From: a virus
UHGV virus genome: UHGV-0383422
Direction: 5' to 3' (one strand)
DNA: 40,660 nucleotides
Part shown: piece after piece, positions 16 through 36,715 of the stretch
Position numbering within the stretch: the first letter of the stretch is position 1
How the letters are laid out: every line of letters starts with the position of its first letter
Made by a program: the position numbers and the translations under genes
The notes under the pieces: model-generated
What the model saw: the letters and a program-made list of their open reading frames with translations, nothing else
Databases searched by the model: none
What the model was told of the DNA's origin: nothing

Positions 16-1266
16 TTATTCCCCCGCCATCCACTTCTCAAACTTCGACGGGGAGAACGGAATCAGATCCGTATGCTCCCCGTCAATCCATGAATCAATC
101 ATATCGGCCCACTGCTGCAACATGTAGGCGCGCTGTCTGGCGTATTCCGCTTTGTTATATACGGCGCGCACACCTTTCTGCTCATGTGCCAGAGCCTTTT
201 CAATCCAGTCTGAAGGATAACCAGCCTCATGCAACAACGTACTGGCTGTACGGCGCATATCATGTACAGTGAAGTCCTGAATATGCTCACCATCTTCATT
301 TATTATTTTCACCGTTCTGTCGATCAGAGAGTTCAGCGCGGCATTAGATAATGGCTTCCGGAAATTGTAACGACCAGGAACCAGATATTCACTTCCACCA
401 GCGCACATCTGCAACCCGACCAATATATCCTGTGCCTGTTTAGGCAGGTAAATAACGTGCGCCCGGCTTCCCTTCATGCGGTCTGGAGGAATTGTCCATG
501 TCCATTTTTTAAAATCTATTTCATCCCACGTTGCATTGGTGAATTCGCCCTTACGAACCATAGTGATAAGCACCAGTTTTAAAGCCATTTTCATAGTGCC
601 CATAGCACCAATGGCATCCAGCGTGCGGAAGAACAGGCCAATTTCTTCTGGTGCCAGTGTTCGCTCTCGTGGTTTAAATATGGCGATAGACGAAGGTTTA
701 ATGTCAGCCGCAGGATTAAACAAACCATGACCACGGTCATTGGCGTGACGGTATACGCTACTGATGATCTCCCTGGCCTGCACTGCTGTTGCCCGGCCAC
801 CGCGTTCGACAATCCGGTCACACAAATCACGAACCATCGATGTGGTAATTTCAGCCATCATTTTATTGCCAAGAACCGGAAGTATGTCACGGTCGATCAC
901 CGCCTGTTTCATTGCGCGGGTACTGTCAGCCAGGATGACGTGTTTCATATAACTGTCGGTATGTACCGCAAACGTCTCGGCACCACGAATCTTTTTGATA
1001 CCGTCACGTTTAGCCGCAGCCGGTGACTGGCCTGCTTTAAGCAGCTTCTTTGCAGCAATCAGTTCTTCTCGCGCTTCTGCCAGGCTGATACCGTCACGCC
1101 CATACTGCCCGATTACCAGTGTTTCGCGGCGACCGTTGATACGGTAGTCATAGCGAAACGAGACCGTGCCTGACGTAAGCACAGCTACATACAGCCCGTC
1201 ACGATCGGAGACCTTGTACAGTTTGTCCTGCGGCTTGAGGTTTTTTAATTTTGTATCGGTAAGCAC
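16..1266 (-). CDS. int: tyrosine integrase (P4-like phage integrase family)
   Basis: 416-aa ORF; C-terminal HDMRRT (HxxR) and catalytic-Tyr region RAVYNKAEY typical of tyrosine recombinases; located at the phage end. Confidence 0.9.
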   Translation of the reverse strand: MLTDTKLKNLKPQDKLYKVSDRDGLYVAVLTSGTVSFRYDYRINGRRETLVIGQYGRDGISLAEAREELIAAKKLLKAGQSPAAAKRDGIKKIRGAETFAVHTDSYMKHVILADSTRAMKQAVIDRDILPVLGNKMMAEITTSMVRDLCDRIVERGGRATAVQAREIISSVYRHANDRGHGLFNPAADIKPSSIAIFKPRERTLAPEEIGLFFRTLDAIGAMGTMKMALKLVLITMVRKGEFTNATWDEIDFKKWTWTIPPDRMKGSRAHVIYLPKQAQDILVGLQMCAGGSEYLVPGRYNFRKPLSNAALNSLIDRTVKIINEDGEHIQDFTVHDMRRTASTLLHEAGYPSDWIEKALAHEQKGVRAVYNKAEYARQRAYMLQQWADMIDSWIDGEHTDLIPFSPSKFEKWMAGE

Positions 1267-1583: not shown

Positions 1584-2066
1584 CTATCTGGTCAAAGTGT
1601 CGTACTGTTTTTCGCAGACTCTTCCGGCTTCGGCTGCCCGGTCAGCATACTCTGCCAGTTGTCTGTTTCTCTCGAGAGATTTGCTGAGCACGTCGGCAAG
1701 CAAAACTCCGGTGTCTGCGGCTGACGACCCAGCGCCGACAATGGCGTTATACTGCCTGAGCTGCTCACGGATGGCAAAGAGTTGTTGCTGCAACCGGCCA
1801 GCGCTAGCGGCAGCATCAAGAGCATCATTGCGCGCCTGGTCGATCCTCTGCTGAGCTTCACGTTCATTGGTCACTTTCTCCTGTTCGTAGTACTGACGAA
1901 CTTTGTCTTCTTCGGCTTTGCGGTCTTCTTCCGCCTGAGCATACCCGGCATCGTACTGGCGACTGCCGTGTATATTCCAGGCAACCACTCCTGATATGAC
2001 CAGAACAGCAAGCACTGCCACGATAAGAAACTGTTTCCAGTATGCTTTTACGAATGCCCAGATCAT
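1584..2066 (-). CDS. inner-membrane spanin subunit (Rz-like)
   Basis: 160 aa; N-terminal transmembrane segment then charged coiled-coil-like region; last gene of lysis cassette; start overlaps endolysin stop. Confidence 0.75.
1592..1828 (-). CDS. outer-membrane lipoprotein spanin subunit (Rz1-like), embedded in Rz in another frame
   Basis: ORF fully inside Rz; N-terminus [14 protein letters not shown] has signal peptide and lipobox (LAGC); Pro-rich mature part; start Met chosen at the internal MM. Confidence 0.65.
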   Translation of the reverse strand: MMLLMLPLALAGCSNNSLPSVSSSGSITPLSALGRQPQTPEFCLPTCSANLSRETDNWQSMLTGQPKPEESAKNSTTL

Positions 2067-2692
2067 ACCGCCAGCACCTTACTGGCAGTGATGTACCGCG
2101 CTCGCCGGTCGTCGATGCCGTTCCGGCCACCATTGATAATCAGAGTTACACGTGCAATATCGCCGGTATACTTCATGCATCCTTTGCTGGCGAAGAACCA
2201 CGCCGCGCTACGAGCCGCATATTCGTCCTGCGCCAGCAGTTCAGGGCTCTCCAGCAGGTCAACCTTCAGACCGTTTCCGCAATCACGATAGTTATTCAAA
2301 CCGGTAATCTGGATAAGTCCGCGCCCTCGGTAATTCCAGCCATCACCAGGGGCATTGTTCCCCATGCGTTTGCTGTATACCAGATTTGCGATCGCGCGCT
2401 GGCGCTCAAGTGGCAATGGTGGTTCACCAGCACGGCGCCCCAGTGCATTAGCCTGCCCCTGAGTGAGACGCCCAGCCCGAACGAAGTTAGCCAGTCCGCT
2501 GACACTGTAGTTGAAATTCTCCTGCAACCTGGTGAAGCCCCCAGACTCATGCCCGACTTGAGCAATAAACATTGCCTGATCTTCTGCTTTGCTGATACCA
2601 AACTCTTTCATCGCAGAAGTTATATGCGAGAACCAGCGTGCGGCCAGTGCCTCGCTGATACCAGCAGCTCGCTGGAATTGTTTAATCTCCAT
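2063..2692 (-). CDS. endolysin, glycoside hydrolase family 19 (chitinase-like lysozyme)
   Basis: 209 aa from internal Met ([11 protein letters not shown]...) with GAGGT Shine-Dalgarno upstream; GH19-like motifs ([22 protein letters not shown]); the listed 264-aa version overlaps the upstream gene and is rejected. Confidence 0.8.
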
Positions 2693-2990
2693 GTTTAGAC
2701 CTCGATACTTTAAAAATTTGAACGACGTTACCGCGCGTTTTAATAACCGCAGCCAGCATGACAGCGTTGATAATGACCTCAGATAAATCCACAGCCATTG
2801 GCGTACGTAACCAGATTGCATAGGCGACTCGAACAGGAATACTGGCCGCAGCAACAATCAGGAAATAAGCAAGCCATCCTCCCCACCTTCGATGTTGAGA
2901 GCCGTTACGCCGGAATGTGACAACGCGAATTGCTATGCCAGTGCAAATAACTGCATTGGTGATAAGCAAAAAAAACTCATGCGTTACCAT
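2682..2990 (-). CDS. second holin-like / lysis-accessory membrane protein
   Basis: 102 aa with about three hydrophobic helices; sits between holin and endolysin with overlapping ends. Confidence 0.5.
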
Positions 2991-3381
2991 CGTCTTTTCT
3001 CCCCGGAATTAACTCGCGTGGATTATCGGAACGGTGATAGAGCCATATACCAATACGCACAGCGACAATTGCTGACACGAATGCGCCTGCAGAGAAAACA
3101 ATCCCTTTTTCAAAAGAGTCCTGCGTGATGGTAGGGATCAGGCTGGCTATGCCGATAAGAATTGATGCTGCTGGTTTGTAAAAGAGAAGGCCGCAAAGAA
3201 AGCTGAGCATCGACAGGAGCACCCGGCGACGGATGGGGTACTCTACTGCAGAGGTAACAAAAATTACCGCCCCAGCCAAAGCCCCTAAAGCAACCTCCGG
3301 AGGGGCACCTGCAATAACCGCAGCAAGAGAACTAAAACTAAGCAACTGATTTAATTGCTCACTTGTTACTTGAGCAGACAT
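2977..3381 (-). CDS. holin-like membrane protein
   Basis: 134 aa, multiple transmembrane segments, charged C-terminus; first gene of lysis cassette; AGGAGAAAGT Shine-Dalgarno upstream. Confidence 0.6.
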   Translation of the reverse strand: MSAQVTSEQLNQLLSFSSLAAVIAGAPPEVALGALAGAVIFVTSAVEYPIRRRVLLSMLSFLCGLLFYKPAASILIGIASLIPTITQDSFEKGIVFSAGAFVSAIVAVRIGIWLYHRSDNPRELIPGRKDDGNA

Positions 3382-7266: not shown

Positions 7267-7284
7267 AGGCCGCAAGAGCGGCCT
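7267..7284. terminator. hairpin between convergent genes (possible bidirectional terminator)
   Basis: Stem AGGCCGC/GCGGCCT with AAGA loop; T-rich flanks on both sides. Confidence 0.45.
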
Positions 7285-8011
7285 ATCGTTTCGCTTTGTG
7301 CTCGTCCCAGCACGTTTTGCACCATGCCATTAAGCCGTCCGCATTTTGATTATTAGGGTAAAAGCTGGTCCGTTTTCTGCGGACATTACAAATTGGGCAC
7401 CACTTCATATGGCGTGTATTCTTTGGGCCATCGAGACACCTTGCACACCACTTAGTCAATCCATCTGGATTTTTTGACGATTTCCGGAATTTGTCATATG
7501 GAAGGTTTATTCTGCATCGCAAACACTGCTTGCGGCCACTTGAAACTCTGTTAGCTGATTCTTCTTTTGGCGGCGATACAGAAGGTATTCTTGCTGGCTC
7601 TGATACTGCCTGAGGTGCTTTTTTAGATGACTGAGACGATATGTCATCACCAGGGAATCTTCCATGATATGCCGGACGCATTGATACTCCAGGTGGAAGC
7701 TCAGCTGTAAACGGCTTTGGCTGAATCAGTTGCCTCTCTTTTGCTAACTCCTGCTGTTTACAATATGTCTGGATTACCGCACTATCATAAGCAGGAGGTG
7801 CGGAAATATTAGGCGCATTACCTCCAGTTTTTTGAAACTGAGTAGAGGTGTGTTCTATCACCTGTGTACGATTAATCGTTATCTCCCCATCTTCGGTCTT
7901 TATCGTTTTGTTATGATTAACGACCGTACGATCAGAGATCTTAGTCTTGTTCTGGTTGATAACGTAAATAATCACCGCAACCACACCAACAACTATCCAG
8001 AAAACTTCCAT
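7283..8011 (-). CDS. membrane-anchored protein with C-terminal tandem Cys4 zinc-ribbon repeats (function unknown)
   Basis: 242 aa; N-terminal transmembrane helix; two approx 30-aa repeats each CxxC...DGL..WC..C; GAGGAA Shine-Dalgarno. Confidence 0.65.
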   Translation of the reverse strand: MEVFWIVVGVVAVIIYVINQNKTKISDRTVVNHNKTIKTEDGEITINRTQVIEHTSTQFQKTGGNAPNISAPPAYDSAVIQTYCKQQELAKERQLIQPKPFTAELPPGVSMRPAYHGRFPGDDISSQSSKKAPQAVSEPARIPSVSPPKEESANRVSSGRKQCLRCRINLPYDKFRKSSKNPDGLTKWCARCLDGPKNTRHMKWCPICNVRRKRTSFYPNNQNADGLMAWCKTCWDEHKAKR

Positions 8012-8030: not shown

Positions 8031-8047
8031 ATTACCTTAAAGGTAAT
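8031..8047. promoter_or_regulatory. operator-like palindrome ATTACCT-TAA-AGGTAAT (perfect)
   Basis: 20-36 bp upstream of the start codon of the 7283-8011 gene; a weaker copy ATTACCT-TTG-CGGTAAA lies at 8124-8140. Confidence 0.5.
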
Positions 8048-8408
8048 ATCTTGCTTTCAGGTGATCAAGCGTTAAACGCCACCAACCAAATACGGTTGAT
8101 TTTGATATTTCTCCGCGTTTATCATTACCTTTGCGGTAAATTTACATCGCACTCCTCTTGTGCCATAGTAATCGGGCACTGGCAAAATCCAGTGCCGGGA
8201 TTGGCGTCCCGGGTTACTAAGTGGCGCATACCACGCCAGACGTGGTTTTTTTATGCGTTAAGCACAGCTATATCCGAATTATGGTGGGCTGGGCAGGGGT
8301 CCGAAAGGACGCCGGTACCACTTAGGCCGGTACGCCAACCTTGTCCAGTTCACCACCAGTAATTGGCGTTGCGGTGGTGATTAAAATCACTAAGTGGAGA
8401 TAACCACC

Positions 8409-9119
8409 ATGGCTAATGCTCAAACTTCCATCTTCAAATTTGAATCTGTTAACCCTATCCGTTCCATCATTATCGATGGCCAACCATGGTTTGTAGCCCA
8501 AGACGTTTGTAGTGCGCTGCGTATCCAAAACGTCACCCAAGCACTTGAAAAACTGGATGATGATGAAAGGTCTATGTTCAACATAGGGCATGAACATCGT
8601 GCAATTTTTGACAGCCGAGTAAAAGAGATCAACATCATCTCCGAGTCAGGCCTCTACACACTGATCCTCCGCTGCCGCGACGCAGTGACACCAGGCACTA
8701 TCCCCTACCGCTTTCGTAAATGGGTTACGGGTGAGGTTCTTCCTCAGATCCGCCGCACCGGAAGCTACATTAAAAACTCGCTCCCGCAGGAAGAACGCAT
8801 AAAGATGGTTGCCGACCAGGTGGCCAACGCCACGGCGTCAGCAGTAATGCAGGCGATGAAGATAGAGAACAAAACCTACAGCGCCCCACTGAATCCCGGC
8901 TACCGCAGCCTGATTCATTCGCCGTCTGGTGTTCTCGGCCTGACGGAGAACTCACTGCTGATGAATCTGCTGAACCAGTTACAGGACGACGGGCACGACG
9001 TATCGGGCGCGGCGGCGGAGCTGACCACCATGTTCTGCTACATCGTCGGTGTGAGCAAATGCCTGCGTGATATCCAGACCCACGCGGAATACATCAACGA
9101 CAAGGCAGGGTTCTTCTGA
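8409..9119 (+). CDS. Bro-N domain antirepressor-like protein
   Basis: 236 aa from ATG at 8409 with GGAGA Shine-Dalgarno; N-terminal Bro-N/KilA-N-like region; C-terminal domain homologous to the 7003-7260 product. Confidence 0.7.
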   Translation: MANAQTSIFKFESVNPIRSIIIDGQPWFVAQDVCSALRIQNVTQALEKLDDDERSMFNIGHEHRAIFDSRVKEINIISESGLYTLILRCRDAVTPGTIPYRFRKWVTGEVLPQIRRTGSYIKNSLPQEERIKMVADQVANATASAVMQAMKIENKTYSAPLNPGYRSLIHSPSGVLGLTENSLLMNLLNQLQDDGHDVSGAAAELTTMFCYIVGVSKCLRDIQTHAEYINDKAGFF

Positions 9120-9152: not shown

Positions 9153-9190
9153 TTCTGTACAGATTGCAGACTGTGGGTGAATAGCGTACT

Positions 9191-9207
9191 ATTACCTTAA
9201 AGGTAAA
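9191..9207. promoter_or_regulatory. operator-like palindrome ATTACCT-TAA-AGGTAAA
   Basis: Immediately upstream of the GGAGG Shine-Dalgarno and ATG (9219) of the 55-aa gene. Confidence 0.5.
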
Positions 9208-9218
9208 GGAGGCGCGAT

Positions 9219-9386
9219 ATGACAGCGTTGAAAAATCGTACTCAGCACAATGAACAAGCCAAGCAATGCTGGGATGTCATTGGAAAAGTTATGCTTGGCC
9301 GCGCAAGCAAAGAGCGCGACAAGGATATGGTTTACCAGACAGGAACATCTTTCAGCGACTTCAAGGCGGCATTTCGCTCCAAATAG
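9219..9386 (+). CDS. hypothetical small protein (55 aa)
   Basis: ATG with strong AAAGGAGG Shine-Dalgarno; hydrophilic; not in the supplied track (below 60 aa); overlaps the N-terminal extension of listed ORF 9266-9847, which I reject. Confidence 0.55.
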   Translation: MTALKNRTQHNEQAKQCWDVIGKVMLGRASKERDKDMVYQTGTSFSDFKAAFRSK

Positions 9387-9406
9387 AAGCACATCAGGAG
9401 TTTTCC

Positions 9407-9847
9407 TTGAAGTTTAACATTAGAATATCTAATAGTTTTCTACATGGGGAAAGCAACACCCCTTTCGCTGTAGACGGACCTTTCCTTACTGATGATGAAA
9501 TAAAAATCATACAAAGTTTTTTAGAGGATGTTGCCAATGGAAGGGCGCTTGTTGGAAAAAACAAGCCCTCGTGGGTTGATGATAACCATGATAAAATTCC
9601 CGGCTCAGACAATTATGAGCAAGAGAATTATTGGCATTATCATTGTGGGCCAACATGGTATCCAAACACATTTAAGAATTATACCATTAACTTAAATTTC
9701 AACCCTGGCGGAAGGCATTCTAATGAATGCATTCATTATGCAAAAAATGATAATGAAATTGTCATTGTTGGATTTTCAAGAGAACACATACCTTTCCTTT
9801 CATCAGATGGAAACAACAATCCGCTTTTTAATGATGAAGAAGAATAG
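9407..9847 (+). CDS. hypothetical protein, AT-rich accessory gene (about 146 aa)
   Basis: Same frame as listed ORF 9266-9847, but start placed at in-frame TTG 9407 six nt after AGGAG; no in-frame ATG in the AT-rich part; sharp drop in GC from about 9400; terminator follows. Confidence 0.5.
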   Translation: MKFNIRISNSFLHGESNTPFAVDGPFLTDDEIKIIQSFLEDVANGRALVGKNKPSWVDDNHDKIPGSDNYEQENYWHYHCGPTWYPNTFKNYTINLNFNPGGRHSNECIHYAKNDNEIVIVGFSREHIPFLSSDGNNNPLFNDEEE

Positions 9848-9867
9848 CCCGCGCTGCGGGCTTTTTT
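9847..9867 (+). terminator. rho-independent terminator
   Basis: Stem GCCCGC/GCGGGC with GCT loop followed by TTTTTT. Confidence 0.75.
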
Positions 9868-9939
9868 GTGGACGAAACAAAAGTCAGTGCTACACTCATT
9901 GACGCCACATTGAGGTGGCTTATAGATGGAAATTTCACA

Positions 9940-10101
9940 ATGAAAAAAGCATTTGCTGCACTGTTCGTTTTGTTGTCTCTGGTAGCTTCAACTCAGGCCT
10001 TTGCCGGTCGTTGTCAGCACGACAGCGACACTGCTGCTGACGGCTCCCGCTGCGGTGGGCGTTCTGCGGACTCCCGTCCGGGCGGCGGTGGCATTCGTTA
10101 A
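9940..10101 (+). CDS. small secreted peptide (signal peptide plus approx 31-aa Cys-containing mature part)
   Basis: MKKAFAALFVLLSLVASTQAFA signal-like N-terminus, then GRCQHDSDTAADGSRCGG...; internal Met chosen because the longer form overlaps the upstream terminator. Confidence 0.45.
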   Translation: MKKAFAALFVLLSLVASTQAFAGRCQHDSDTAADGSRCGGRSADSRPGGGGIR

Positions 10102-26706: not shown

Positions 26707-26783
26707 GTGGCATTAGCTCAGTTGGACAGAGCAACCGCCTTCTAAGCGGTTGGTCGCAGGTTCGAATCCTGCATGCCACGCCA
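26707..26783 (+). tRNA. tRNA-Arg (anticodon UCU)
   Basis: Folded by hand: acceptor GTGGCAT/ATGCCAC, D-arm GCTC/GAGC, anticodon stem ACCGC/GCGGT with loop CTTCTAA (anticodon TCT), T-arm GCAGG-TTCGAAT-CCTGC, discriminator G and CCA. Confidence 0.9.
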
Positions 26784-33596: not shown

Positions 33597-33613
33597 TTTA
33601 CCTCTAAGGTAAT
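33597..33613. promoter_or_regulatory. operator-like palindrome TTTACCT-CTA-AGGTAAT
   Basis: Dispersed motif family; overlaps the ribosome-binding region of 33250-33594. Confidence 0.45.
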
Positions 33614-35625: not shown

Positions 35626-35856
35626 TCATGAGTAGAAGAAGTATGCCAGTTCTGCTTTTGAGCGCAGCCATTGTCTTGTTTTACAGGCTTTAAAAAGCCC
35701 ATTCATCAATACTTTACCTGGCATTTTGCGCTTGCCTGTTAAGTGAGTCTGGATATAGTGACTCGTCGTTCCGGCTTCCTGTGCGAAGGCTTCACGCTCA
35801 TCCGGAGTAAGTGCAAGCCAGTGCTTTTTGAAATCGAAATGTCCGTTATCGCTCAT
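35626..35856 (-). CDS. Cro-like HTH regulator
   Basis: 76 aa; HTH-like segment FAQEAGTTSHYIQTHLTGKRK; divergent from the CI-like gene across an operator cluster. Confidence 0.6.
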   Translation of the reverse strand: MSDNGHFDFKKHWLALTPDEREAFAQEAGTTSHYIQTHLTGKRKMPGKVLMNGLFKACKTRQWLRSKAELAYFFYS

Positions 35857-36010: not shown

Positions 36011-36595
36011 ATGAAAAGTATCCAGGACGTCCGCAGGCAAAATCTCAACGACTTGATCGACCGTGAATTCAATGGTGTTCAGACGCGGATGGCAGAAAAA
36101 CTTGGAACTCAGGCAAATCTGGTAAACCGCTGGGCTCTTGGCAAGAAGGTTATCGGCGACCAGGTTGCACGAAAAATTGAAGCTGCCGCCAATAAACCCC
36201 GTAACTGGCTTGATATTGATCGTTCGCTTTCTCAGGAGGGTTTTCAGCCTGTCGGCCCGAGCGATATAGGTCAGCTGGCGGCTCACAACCTGGAACGCTG
36301 GATGAGCGAAAGCCGCGACCTTTCAACACAGGGAAAACTTCACCGCGCATCCGGCGTCGCCCAGGTGACAATCAGCCGCCTGTTAAACAATGAGGTCAGC
36401 GTTTCCATTTCCACCCTGGAGAATGTTGCATCCGCATTCGGGCGTCACGGATATGAACTACTGATTCACCCGCACGACCCTGCGACTATCAACTATGACC
36501 GCTCACGCTACGCATTGTTACCCGAAACCGAGAAAGCAAAGATCGAAAGTTACATTGAATTTGTCATCAACCAGAACGAAAAAAGCAAACAATAA
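36011..36595 (+). CDS. CI-like repressor candidate (HTH; no LexA-type self-cleavage domain evident)
   Basis: 194 aa; HTH-like segments; no Ser-Lys peptidase motif; divergent from cro-like gene; own terminator. Confidence 0.55.
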   Translation: MKSIQDVRRQNLNDLIDREFNGVQTRMAEKLGTQANLVNRWALGKKVIGDQVARKIEAAANKPRNWLDIDRSLSQEGFQPVGPSDIGQLAAHNLERWMSESRDLSTQGKLHRASGVAQVTISRLLNNEVSVSISTLENVASAFGRHGYELLIHPHDPATINYDRSRYALLPETEKAKIESYIEFVINQNEKSKQ

Positions 36596-36686: not shown

Positions 36687-36715
36687 TTGACACCAAACCA
36701 AATAAGCATAATTAT
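36687..36715 (+). promoter_or_regulatory. candidate sigma70 promoter for rightward early operon
   Basis: TTGACA (36687-36692), 17-bp spacer, AATTAT-like -10; sits between terminator/operator and the first ORF. Confidence 0.35.

What the first reader, a model, noticed from the sequence alone, without database searches (positions are those of the whole stretch)
9219..9847. AT-rich two-gene accessory cassette with a probable TTG-initiated gene
A 55-aa gene with a strong Shine-Dalgarno is followed 20 nt later by a markedly AT-rich ORF (roughly one-third GC by eye). That ORF has no in-frame ATG but has an AGGAG six nt before an in-frame TTG at 9407, and ends with a strong terminator. The encoded 146-aa protein has an acidic tail and segments such as YWHYHCGPTWYPNTFKNY that I cannot place. 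The cassette is bounded by an operator-like palindrome upstream. Composition and boundaries suggest recent horizontal acquisition; function could be exclusion, defense or host modification.
Basis: partly seen in the sequence, partly recalled or inferred. Interest (0 to 1): 0.55.

Follow-up and report, generated by a model that had tools for sequence, protein, structure and literature searches.

The report
RelE-fold toxin–antitoxin-like prophage cargo cassette
A two-gene insert in an E. coli prophage encodes a small basic protein and a protein with the fold of RelE-type mRNA-cutting toxins. It is most likely an undescribed family of toxin–antitoxin module, and it is the real gene behind a published "orf10" virulence phenotype.

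Summary
A 55-aa gene (9219-9386) and a TTG-initiated, AT-rich 146-aa gene (9407-9847) form an exchangeable cassette that ends at a strong terminator. RefSeq already annotates the TTG start.

- **No annotation:** neither protein matches Pfam, NCBIfam or PADLOC. Both fall in function-unknown PHROGs.
- **Paired genes:** the small gene lies directly upstream in every locus examined. These include prophages, an Erwinia chromosomal site and 2.7-3.0 kb plasmids where the pair is the only cargo apart from a replication-type gene.
- **Best reading (about 0.6):** a new RelE-fold type II toxin–antitoxin-like module.
- **Cargo slot:** related prophages carry a YafO-family pair or other genes at the same position.
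- **Palindrome:** it belongs to the phage backbone, not the cassette. It is one of 11 exact genome-wide copies of a repressor-operator-like motif.
- **Published "orf10":** Li et al. 2020 deleted a wrong-frame ORF that lies inside this gene.

Toxicity, RNase activity and neutralisation are untested.

The parts
9164..9192 (+). Putative sigma-70 promoter of the cargo slot: -35 TTGCAG (9164-9169), 17-nt spacer, -10 TACTAT (9187-9192). It lies in the conserved backbone.
   Evidence: Read from the sequence. It is weaker than the scan threshold. It is identical in TL-2011b and in other slot variants. The geometry (-35, 17-18 nt, -10 whose last T starts the inverted repeat) matches the PL-like promoter at 36688-36715 and the c4/ant promoter at 8096-8125. 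Promoter activity is inferred, not tested.
9192..9206 (.). 15-bp inverted repeat TTACC-TTAAA-GGTAA. It is one copy of a phage-wide operator-like motif and forms the left edge of the cargo slot.
   Evidence: The window holds 11 exact and 3 one-mismatch copies, against 0.68 expected. Copies sit in the cro/cI intergenic region and flank a promoter just after cI. The repeat is conserved upstream of all five cargo types and in Pectobacterium and Serratia prophages.
9208..9845 (+). Exchangeable cargo cassette. It is promoterless and carries two genes, each with its own ribosome-binding site.
   Evidence: Identity with TL-2011b is lost at about 9208 and regained at about 9842. Breakpoints of flank-only matches in E. 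coli genomes fall at 9197-9210 and 9836-9848. Cassette GC is 0.39 against 0.49 for the window.
9206..9212 (+). Shine-Dalgarno AAGGAGG of the 55-aa gene.
   Evidence: it lies 6 nt before ATG 9219.
9219..9386 (+). 55-aa basic protein (pI 9.8) and putative antitoxin. The conserved part is residues about 18-52 (W18, D19, L26, R28, G42, S44, D47).
   Evidence: phrog_8607, E 3.6e-39. It lies directly upstream of the 146-aa homologue in every locus examined. Alignment. AF2 predicts a long helix at low confidence (pLDDT 70.8). No Pfam domain.
9396..9400 (+). Shine-Dalgarno AGGAG of the 146-aa gene.
   Evidence: it lies 6 nt before TTG 9407.
9407..9847 (+). 146-aa acidic protein (pI 4.9) with a RelE/ParE-superfamily fold and putative toxin. 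Conserved motifs are G50-K-N-K-P-S-W56, W76-H-Y-H-C-G81, I109-H-Y111 and S124-x-x-H127-x-P-F130. The start codon is TTG.
9537..9695 (+). Wrong-frame 52-aa 'Orf10' of GenBank MN187550.1. This is the interval deleted by Li et al. 2020. The deletion removes codons about 44-97 of the 146-aa gene.
   Evidence: Annotation. The knockout homology arms map to 9477-9536 and 9696-9755.
9846..9868 (+). Intrinsic terminator (7-bp G+C-rich stem, 3-nt loop, T6). It is shared backbone and forms the right edge of the slot.
   Evidence: It is conserved after all five cargo types, with the loop in either orientation, GCT or AGC.

Best explanation
Positions 9208-9845 hold a mobile two-gene module of a previously unannotated family. 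It works like a type II toxin–antitoxin pair.

**Shown**
- The 146-aa product has the RelE/ParE toxin fold.
- Relative to minimal RelE toxins, it has an extended segment before helix 2 and a roughly 28-residue insertion between strands 3 and 4.

**Inferred mechanism**
- It is an endoribonuclease that cuts mRNA, probably on the ribosome as RelE, YoeB, YafQ, HigB and YafO do.
- It would use a histidine-rich site: H77/H79 on strand 3, H110 on strand 4 and H127 just after the last strand. K51/K53 on strand 2 would also contribute.
- The 55-aa basic protein encoded 20 nt upstream neutralises it by direct binding through its conserved C-terminal segment of about 35 residues.
- A strong Shine-Dalgarno plus ATG on the small gene, against a TTG start on the large gene, would keep the antitoxin in excess.

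**Regulation in this phage**
- The pair is promoterless cargo. It sits in a fixed slot between the Bro-N antirepressor gene and a small secreted-protein gene.
- It is probably transcribed from a backbone promoter whose -10 abuts a copy of the phage-wide operator TTACC-N5-GGTAA.
- The prophage's cI-like HTH repressor probably binds that operator. Expression would then be low in a quiet lysogen and rise on derepression.

**Likely biological role**
- Stabilisation of the element (addiction), and/or growth arrest that excludes other phages.
- The published serum-resistance phenotype of 'Δorf10' is a consequence of losing this gene.
For: **Fold**
- The AF2 model is confident: pLDDT 91.6, pTM 0.86.
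- These hits align about 80 of about 88 target residues at 2.3-2.9 Å.
- The top Foldseek hits are the same families.

**Enzyme-like conservation**
- In 81 relatives with a mean column identity of 19%, H79 and H127 are invariant.
- G50, N52, K53, S55, H77, Y78, H110, Y111 and F130 are at least 90% conserved.

**Obligate pairing**
- A partner gene sharing the same C-terminal motif lies directly upstream in every locus examined.
- These loci are E. coli, Pectobacterium, Serratia, Klebsiella, Proteus, Erwinia, Pasteurellaceae, Neisseriaceae, Aeromonas and an Enterobacter locus. The spacing ranges from a short overlap to 31 nt.

**Contexts typical of TA modules**
- Two different prophage slots: after Bro-N, and in the nin region.
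- A non-phage chromosomal site between accA and an IF-2B-family gene in Erwinia.
- 37 plasmid records. The 15 listed are 2.7-4.6 kb. In the three examined, the pair is the only cargo beside a replication-type or unnamed gene.

**Same slot in relatives**
- In TL-2011b and many E. coli prophages, this slot holds a small basic protein plus a protein annotated as a YafO-family toxin.

**Weak start codon**
- TTG or GTG starts on the large gene recur in four genera.

**Published experiment**
- A deletion inside the 146-aa gene that leaves the 55-aa gene intact is viable, with normal growth in LB (PMC7724020). This fits the large protein being the toxin rather than the antidote.

**Regulation**
- Operator copies and their geometry support repressor control.
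- The cI-like protein has an HTH_3 domain.
- 'orf10' RNA rose 2^4.12-fold in serum. The PR-operon genes orf40 and orf41 rose 2^3.68- and 2^4.56-fold (positions).
Against: - **No sequence link to known toxins.** Pfam, NCBIfam and PADLOC give nothing. No toxin–antitoxin family appears among the listed Pfam matches of the 81 relatives, and no family matched more than one member. A profile search against PDB finds nothing. hhalign gives probability 1.6% against YafO, 4% against YoeB and 0.1% against YafQ.
- **Charge is reversed relative to classical RelBE.** The putative toxin is acidic (pI 4.9, net charge -11). The partner is basic (pI 9.8). An acidic protein is an odd fit for ribosome or RNA binding.
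- **No autoregulation is evident.** The partner has no recognisable DNA-binding domain. The upstream palindrome is a phage element, not a cassette-specific operator.
- **Partner architecture varies.** In Pasteurellaceae and Neisseriaceae the partner is 159-211 aa with a hydrophobic N-terminus, which is unusual for an antitoxin.
- **The viability argument is weakened.** If the repressor keeps the promoter off in lysogens, a viable deletion tells us less.
- **Not tested.** Toxicity, neutralisation, complex formation and RNase activity were not tested.
Confidence: 0.6

Rival explanations
1. The module is a phage developmental tool rather than an addiction or defence module. It would be an early, repressor-controlled RelE-fold endoribonuclease that reshapes host or phage mRNA pools after induction or infection, as T4 RegB does. 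The 55-aa protein would act as its timer, inhibitor or cofactor.
For: - The cargo promoter carries the same operator, in the same geometry, as the PL-like early promoter.
- Transcript levels rise together with early genes in serum.
- T4 RegB is an early-gene endoribonuclease with a RelE/YoeB-like structure (PMC3014915).
Against: - The same pair sits on 2.7-3.0 kb plasmids and at an Erwinia chromosomal site with no phage around it. Its function therefore cannot depend on a phage programme.
- The slot is optional: only 71 of 485 E. coli genomes with these flanks carry this cargo.
Confidence: 0.15
2. The module is a lysogenic-conversion regulator, as Li et al. proposed for 'orf10'. The product would raise K1-capsule gene expression and serum resistance without being a toxin. 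The RelE fold would have been re-used for a non-toxic regulatory role.
For: PMC7724020 reports these effects for the deletion:
- Survival in 50% chicken serum falls to about 60% of wild type.
- The kps genes are down about 2-fold.
- Bacterial loads in chickens returned to wild-type level in the complemented strain.

The deleted interval lies inside the 146-aa gene.
Against: - The study targeted a wrong-frame 52-aa ORF. The extent of the complementing fragment is not given, so it is unknown which product complemented.
- The effects are modest and could be indirect, for example through basal RNase activity or a scar-fusion peptide.
- Invariant histidines, the obligate partner and carriage on small plasmids are not explained by a K1-capsule regulator. 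Most hosts of the family lack K1 capsule.
Confidence: 0.1
3. The module is an anti-defence protein. The acidic 146-aa protein with its acidic tail would be expressed early and would inhibit a host defence or nucleic-acid-binding protein, acting as a decoy or mimic. The basic partner would be a chaperone.
For: - pI 4.9, net charge -11 and a DEEE tail.
- Early-type promoter control.
- Variable cargo slots often hold defence or counter-defence genes.
Against: - The fold is that of an RNase toxin and the conserved residues are histidines and lysines, not the acidic surface.
- The acidic tail is not conserved.
- More distant relatives have a median pI of 6.7 and range up to 10.7.
- Residence on cryptic plasmids argues against a phage counter-defence role.
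Confidence: 0.06
4. The polarity is reversed. The 55-aa basic helical protein would be the toxin and the 146-aa acidic protein its antidote.
For: The charge pattern (basic small protein, acidic large protein) is the reverse of RelE/RelB.
Against: - The large protein carries the toxin fold and the invariant catalytic-type residues.
- Deletion inside the large gene, with the small gene intact, is viable with normal growth in LB.
- Only the C-terminal ~35 residues of the partner are conserved, while its N-terminal part is freely replaced. This is typical of antitoxins.
Confidence: 0.04

Closest known systems
RelE/YoeB/YafQ/HigB ribosome-dependent mRNA interferases (RelE/ParE toxin superfamily)
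   Same: - A small partner gene lies directly upstream.
- Conserved basic and histidine residues sit on strands 2-4, and a conserved His follows the last strand. In sequence order this corresponds to YoeB H83 and YafQ H87 (my reading from known active sites, not a tested superposition).
- The motif GKNKPSW resembles YoeB GKGKPEPL.
   Different: - There is no significant sequence or profile similarity.
- The protein is about 60 residues longer, with an insertion at 80-107 and an extended N-terminal part.
- It is acidic rather than basic.
- The partner is a 55-aa basic protein without an RHH, Phd or HTH DNA-binding domain.
YafO-family toxin cassette of phage TL-2011b and many E. coli prophages (Pfam PF13957), and E. 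coli YafNO
   Same: - It occupies exactly the same slot, with the same promoter/operator and terminator flanks.
- The layout is the same: a 59-aa basic protein followed by an acidic 181-aa protein.
- Invariant residues come in the same order, HxH ... H(x)xY ... H.
- YafO is a RelE-related, translation-dependent mRNA interferase (PMC2814082).
   Different: - The PF13957 model does not match.
- hhalign against a canonical YafO alignment gives probability 1.6%, E 0.032.
- BLASTP finds nothing significant for either protein pair.
- The partner is unrelated to YafN.
PaaR2-PaaA2-ParE2 of E. coli O157 cryptic prophage CP-933P
   Same: - It is a RelE/ParE-superfamily toxin in a prophage.
- Its expression is embedded in the prophage's lambda-like repressor network rather than being simply autoregulated (PMC8630535).
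- From my own knowledge: PaaA2 is a small antitoxin that lacks a DNA-binding domain.
   Different: - ParE2 is not an RNase, from my own knowledge of ParE-type toxins.
- paaR2 is part of the operon. Here the inferred regulator is the phage's own cI-like gene, 27 kb away.
- There is no sequence similarity.
T4 RegB endoribonuclease
   Same: It is a phage-encoded, early-expressed endoribonuclease with a RelE/YoeB-like structure and catalytic histidines (PMC3014915).
   Different: - RegB has no known partner gene and is not found on plasmids or in chromosomes as a two-gene module.
Phage morons / variable cargo slots
   Same: It is an AT-rich foreign insert between conserved backbone genes, followed by a terminator, with alternative contents in related phages.
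   Different: The cargo brings no promoter of its own. The promoter, operator and terminator all belong to the backbone, so the slot acts like an expression socket.

Membership tests
RelE/ParE toxin superfamily (fold level) | Compact alpha/beta fold: N-terminal strand, two helices, then an antiparallel sheet of three to four strands | tested here: met
   [not shown]
RelE/ParE toxin superfamily (fold level) | Match to a sequence family of the superfamily (ParE_toxin, YoeB_toxin, YafQ_toxin, HigB, Gp49, YafO_toxin ...) | tested here: not met
   No Pfam hit at E up to 1 for the protein. No such family is among the listed Pfam matches of the 81 relatives. No NCBIfam hit. The profile search against PDB sequences returns only chance hits.
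RelE/ParE toxin superfamily (fold level) | Catalytic or RNA-binding residues on the sheet face and at the C-terminus | tested here: inconclusive
   H79 and H127 are invariant. K53, H77, H110 and Y111 are at least 90% conserved, on strands 2-4 and just after strand 5. Overall charge is acidic.
Type II toxin–antitoxin system | Two adjacent co-oriented small genes that travel together | tested here: met
   A partner lies directly upstream in all loci examined across four bacterial orders, with spacing from a short overlap to 31 nt.
Type II toxin–antitoxin system | Residence on mobile elements, including plasmids, at varied insertion sites | tested here: met
   Two different prophage slots, an Erwinia chromosomal site and 37 plasmid records, of which those listed are 2.7-4.6 kb.
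Type II toxin–antitoxin system | Autoregulation through a DNA-binding domain in the antitoxin | tested here: not met
   The 55-aa protein has no Pfam domain and is predicted as one long helix. The upstream palindrome is shared with unrelated cargoes and is repeated genome-wide.
Type II toxin–antitoxin system | The toxin arrests growth and the antitoxin neutralises it by direct binding | not testable with these tools
The only indirect evidence is that the deletion inside the large gene is viable.
YafO toxin family (PF13957) / YafNO | Match to the YafO_toxin model above 25 bits | tested here: not met
   No hit. As controls, E. coli YafO scores 134.6 bits and the TL-2011b protein 26.3 bits.
YafO toxin family (PF13957) / YafNO | Profile-profile similarity to canonical YafO | tested here: not met
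   hhalign of the 81-sequence family alignment against 14 YafO sequences gives probability 1.6%, E 0.032. The aligned motifs (WHYH to AHIH, TS..IHY to TS..LVY) are suggestive only.
YafO toxin family (PF13957) / YafNO | YafN (Phd/YefM-type) antitoxin upstream | tested here: not met
   The partner has no Pfam match and no similarity to the TL-2011b partner.
YoeB / YafQ families | Profile similarity to E. coli YoeB or YafQ | tested here: not met
   hhalign probability is 4.1% for YoeB, covering only helix 2 and the GKxKP motif, and 0.1% for YafQ. Both query sequences were recalled from memory.
PHROG families 5954 and 8607 (function unknown) | Full-length match to the profile | tested here: met
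   E 6.8e-74 over 1-142 of 143 positions, and E 3.6e-39 over 1-55 of 55.
Known anti-phage defence systems (PADLOC) | Match to any PADLOC model | tested here: not met
   No hit at E up to 1 for either protein.

The most novel reading that the evidence does not exclude
The module may not be a conventional addiction or abortive-infection toxin–antitoxin pair. It could instead be a new class of acidic RelE-fold RNase whose expression is wired to the prophage repressor through a backbone 'expression socket'. In this reading, its low-level or induction-coupled activity reprogrammes host gene expression, for example K1 capsule and serum resistance. A toxin fold would then have been domesticated as a prophage-controlled virulence regulator. 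The socket, bounded by operator and terminator, would be a general device for swapping such effectors.
Probability: 0.15. Interest if true: 0.7.

Novelty: new variant of a known kind. Interest (0 to 1): 0.5.

Why it matters
1. **A new family.** It adds a family of about 120 clusters at 50% identity to the RelE/ParE toxin superfamily. No current profile library names it. It is found in prophages, on cryptic plasmids and in chromosomes of Enterobacterales, Pasteurellales, Aeromonadales and Neisseriales. It has unusual properties: an acidic toxin and a tiny basic partner with no DNA-binding domain.
2. **A correction to the literature.** The 'orf10' of phage phiv142-3, reported to promote serum resistance and chicken colonisation, is a wrong-frame call inside this gene. 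The phenotype should be re-tested against the 146-aa protein.
3. **A defined cargo slot.** It lies between a repressor-operator-type palindrome and a shared terminator, and holds at least five alternative cargoes. This is a convenient place to look for further prophage accessory functions.

Tried and rejected
**Searches that found nothing**
- Pfam, NCBIfam and PADLOC scans of both proteins gave nothing.
- Pfam on ten distant relatives and on all 81 family members showed no toxin–antitoxin family.
- Profile searches of PDB sequences gave only chance hits: a cytochrome c555 repeat artefact and Cks1.
- Foldseek against BFVD was uninformative.
- Pfam on the long Pasteurellaceae and Neisseriaceae partners found no domain.
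- Rfam found nothing inside the cassette. A Trp-leader hit at 9763-9869 has E 0.28, below threshold, and is just the terminator.

**Similarity tests that failed**
- BLASTP of both proteins against the TL-2011b pair was not significant.
- hhalign against YafO, YoeB and YafQ was not significant.

- afdb50 was unavailable.
- The search for related loci with the broad alignments failed for lack of a conserved stretch. With A1 it returned 19 loci, one of which is a false positive (ribosomal protein L13-like, L037).

**Readings rejected**
- *The 193-aa ORF starting at ATG 9266.* It overlaps the 55-aa gene. It is contradicted by homologue N-termini and by in-frame stops upstream of the start in other genera.
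- *A pseudogene or non-coding AT-rich filler.* It is contradicted by conservation and by pN far below pS.
- *The palindrome as an operator specific to this toxin–antitoxin pair.* The palindrome is shared with unrelated cargoes and is repeated genome-wide.

**Literature**
- The ZX5 phage paper contains no operator mapping.
Full report
**1. What is in the sequence**

- AAGGAGG (9206-9212) lies 6 nt before ATG 9219. The 55-aa ORF ends at 9386.
- A 20-nt gap follows. AGGAG (9396-9400) lies 6 nt before TTG 9407.
- A 146-aa ORF with no internal Met ends at 9847 with the residues ...NDEEE.
- The hairpin AGCCCGCGCTGCGGGCT plus T6 follows.
- The 146-aa gene has GC 0.356 and GC3 0.31. The window has GC 0.489 and the neighbouring ant gene 0.52.

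One correction is needed. The frame is open upstream to ATG 9266 (193 aa), overlapping the 55-aa gene.

The TTG is nevertheless the real start.
- RefSeq/PGAP annotates 9407-9847 as WP_000671198.1.
- The PHROG profile matches from residue 1.
- Homologues start at the same position.
- In Pectobacterium, Serratia and Erwinia, in-frame stops 2-4 codons upstream force a TTG or GTG start.

Both genes evolve under purifying selection. pN is 0.25-0.43 while pS is saturated at 0.76-0.91.

**2. Where it comes from**

The region is 100% identical to Escherichia phage phiv142-3 (Uetakevirus). It is 97% identical to phage HEMP4.
- 71 to 77 of about 470-485 E. coli genomes that carry the flanking sequence also carry this cassette.
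- The GenBank record of phiv142-3 mis-annotates the large gene as a wrong-frame 52-aa 'Orf10', window 9537-9695.

**3. The cassette is cargo in a fixed slot**

Alignment with phage TL-2011b shows near-identity through the end of the Bro-N antirepressor gene and the intergenic region, up to about 9207.
- Unrelated sequence follows, and identity returns at about 9842.
- E. coli prophages carry at least five cargoes at this position:
  - this pair;
  - a 59-aa protein plus a 181-aa YafO-family toxin;
  - a single 210-aa protein;
  - a DUF4760 protein;
  - a 108-aa protein plus a DUF2335 protein.
- All five share the left edge TTACC-N5-GGT(A/G)A and the right edge AGCCCGC-(GCT or AGC)-GCGGGCT-T6.
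- All are AT-rich, with GC 0.39-0.45.

**4. The palindrome**

TTACC-N5-GGTAA occurs 11 times exactly in the window, and 14 times allowing one mismatch. Chance predicts 0.68. phiv142-3 has 10 exact and 5 one-mismatch copies.
- Two copies and a degenerate third lie between the divergent cro-like gene (35626-35856, minus strand) and the cI-like gene (36011-36595; HTH_3).
- Two more flank a TTGACA-17-AATTAT promoter just after cI.
- At that promoter, at the c4/ant promoter (8096-8125), at 33598 and at the cargo slot, the repeat begins at the last T of a -10-like hexamer. At the cargo slot the elements are TTGCAG-17-TACTAT, 9164-9192.
- I infer that this is the operator of the prophage repressor and that the cargo is transcribed from a repressor-controlled backbone promoter. 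Binding was not tested.

This fits the data of Li et al. 'orf10' RNA rises 2^4.12-fold in serum. The PR-operon genes orf40 and orf41 rise 2^3.68- and 2^4.56-fold. The support is weak, because most operons in this phage have such a site.

**5. What the proteins are**

Neither protein matches Pfam, NCBIfam or PADLOC. They belong to phrog_5954 and phrog_8607, both of unknown function.

*The 146-aa family*
- It has 34 clusters at 90% identity, all named 'hypothetical'.
- It has 121 representatives at E up to 1e-3 among 1.84 billion proteins.
- Across 81 diverse members, H79 and H127 are invariant. G50, N52, K53, S55, H77, Y78, H110, Y111 and F130 are at least 90% conserved.

*Structure*
- AlphaFold2 gives a confident model, pLDDT 91.6 and pTM 0.86.
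- About 80 residues align at 2.3-2.9 Å.
- Foldseek ranks the same families first, but below significance.

*What the fold assignment does and does not establish*
- The fold assignment is solid. Sequence-level membership of any named family is not.
- hhalign gives 1.6% against YafO, 4% against YoeB and 0.1% against YafQ.
- By sequence order, K51/K53 lie on strand 2, H77/H79 on strand 3 and H110 on strand 4. H127 lies just after the last strand.
- This arrangement recalls RelE K52/K54 and the His sites of YafQ and YoeB. That comparison is my inference from known active sites, not a measured superposition.

**6. The partner**

A small gene lies directly upstream of every homologue examined.
- Pectobacterium and Serratia prophages: 56-57 aa, after Bro-N.
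- Klebsiella lambdoid prophages: in the nin region.
- Proteus: 62 aa.
- Erwinia: 58 aa, in the chromosome between accA and an IF-2B-family gene.
- Aeromonas: 71 aa.
- An Enterobacter locus: 66 aa.
- Pasteurellaceae and Neisseriaceae: 159-211 aa.

Only the C-terminal ~35 residues are shared, with the pattern L-x-R ... Y ... G/S-x-S-x-x-D. This fits a toxin-binding segment. The 55-aa protein alone is predicted as one long helix at low confidence and has no DNA-binding domain.

**7. Plasmids**

tblastn finds the large protein in 37 plasmid records from 10 genera. The 15 listed are 2.7-4.6 kb.
- The Providencia 2,673-bp plasmid carries only an HTH replication-type gene, a 62-aa partner and the 153-aa homologue.
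- E. coli p1_020001 (2,959 bp) carries the pair plus one HTH gene. The Edwardsiella plasmid (3,043 bp) carries the pair plus two unnamed genes.
- Being the sole accessory cargo of such small replicons is the classic setting of an addiction module.

**8. Published experiment**

Li et al. 2020 (PMC7724020) deleted 'orf10' of phiv142-3.
- Their homology arms map to 9477-9536 and 9696-9755.
- The deletion therefore removes codons about 44-97 of the 146-aa gene, including GKNKPSW and WHYHCG. The 55-aa gene is left intact.
- The mutant grew normally in LB. It grew less well in serum, showed about 60% of wild-type survival in 50% serum, had about 2-fold lower kps mRNA and reached 7-8% of wild-type loads in chicken blood and heart.
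- The complementing fragment is not specified.
- Viability of this deletion fits the large protein being the toxin. If the promoter is repressed in lysogens, the argument is weaker.

**9. Interpretation**

The best explanation, at about 0.6, is a new RelE-fold type II toxin–antitoxin-like module.
- The large protein would be an mRNA endonuclease, probably ribosome-dependent.
- The small protein would be a direct-binding antitoxin. Its ATG and strong Shine-Dalgarno, against the toxin's TTG, would favour antitoxin excess.

Points against this reading:
- there is no sequence link to known toxins;
- the charge is reversed, pI 4.9 for the toxin and 9.8 for the partner, a pattern shared with the TL-2011b YafO-family pair;
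- there is no antitoxin DNA-binding domain;
- the partners in Pasteurellaceae are long, with a hydrophobic N-terminus.

Rival readings are:
- a phage early RNase in the manner of T4 RegB, at 0.15;
- a non-toxic virulence regulator, at 0.10;
- an acidic anti-defence protein, at 0.06;
- reversed polarity, at 0.04.

**10. Comparison and novelty**

- It works like RelE, YoeB, YafQ and YafO. YafO is a RelE-related, translation-dependent interferase (PMC2814082).
- In regulation it resembles paaR2-paaA2-parE2, which is embedded in a prophage repressor network (PMC8630535).
- It fails every sequence-based membership test for those families.
- I rate it a new variant of a known kind, with moderate interest. 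The fold-level answer is conventional.
- Three results are nonetheless useful: the family is unnamed, the toxin is oddly acidic, and the correction of a published virulence gene can be acted on directly. The operator-to-terminator cargo socket adds a fourth.

Noticed in passing
window 1309, 6912, 8032, 8125, 9192, 26370, 29475, 29493, 33598, 33660, 35893, 35941, 36653, 36715: The 15-bp inverted repeat TTACC-N5-GGTAA occurs 14 times allowing one mismatch (11 exact), against 0.68 expected. Copies lie upstream of most operons and cluster around the cI-like/cro-like genes. This resembles a dispersed-operator repressor system like that of P1.
   Followed up: partly
window 8163-8360: Rfam finds isrK (8176-8252, 67.7 bits), C4 antisense RNA (8277-8360, 66 bits) and the C4 a1/b1 target sites (8163-8215, 44.1 bits, just under that family's gathering score of 46.7) just upstream of the Bro-N antirepressor gene (8394-9119). 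This looks like a P1/P7-type immI antisense control of ant in a Uetakevirus-like phage.
   Followed up: no
window 9846-9862 and the same site in L002, L015, L016, L017: The loop of the shared terminator hairpin occurs as GCT or as its reverse complement AGC in different slot variants. The whole hairpin is therefore present in both orientations. This may be a trace of recombination or template switching at the slot boundary.
   Followed up: no
window 9940-10101 (+), promoter-like TTGACG-17-TATAGA at about 9901-9929: A conserved 53-aa protein with a signal-peptide-like N-terminus lies directly after the slot and appears to have its own promoter. It matches phrog_14503, 'membrane associated protein', in the moron category. 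RefSeq sometimes calls it 'transmembrane anchored protein'.
   Followed up: no
window 7283-8011 (-): A 242-aa protein has an N-terminal hydrophobic segment and C-terminal CxxC repeats. It gives weak Stc1, endonuclease VII, Lar-like and HNH PHROG/Pfam hits. It is transcribed divergently from the c4/ant operon and has an operator copy at 8032.
   Followed up: no
L020-L035 (Pasteurellaceae, Neisseriaceae), about 1400-2000 in each locus: The partner of the RelE-fold protein is 159-211 aa here and has a hydrophobic, signal-peptide-like N-terminus. Only its last ~35 residues resemble the 55-aa protein. No Pfam domain was found. In L008 the pair sits directly after a MuF-fused polymorphic toxin gene.
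   Followed up: partly
window 9219-9386; proteins P0042, P0044, P0045, P0046: Several short-read assemblies contain frameshifted versions of the 55-aa gene whose tails switch into other reading frames. These are probably assembly errors, but they could be real inactivated alleles.
   Followed up: no
window 26707-26783 (+): The phage carries a tRNA-Arg(tct) gene. phiv142-3 annotates a tRNA-Arg(tct) at the corresponding place but on the opposite strand.
   Followed up: no
window 16-1266 (-) next to the lysis genes at 1584-3381: A 416-aa ORF of integrase size sits next to the lysis genes. In the integrated prophage of strain MS20653, the integrase and the lysis genes are at opposite ends, between yfgI and guaA. 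The window is therefore probably a circularised or permuted phage genome rather than a prophage in place. Its tailspike (1039 aa, annotated as endosialidase-type in MS20653) differs from that of phiv142-3 (710 aa).
   Followed up: no
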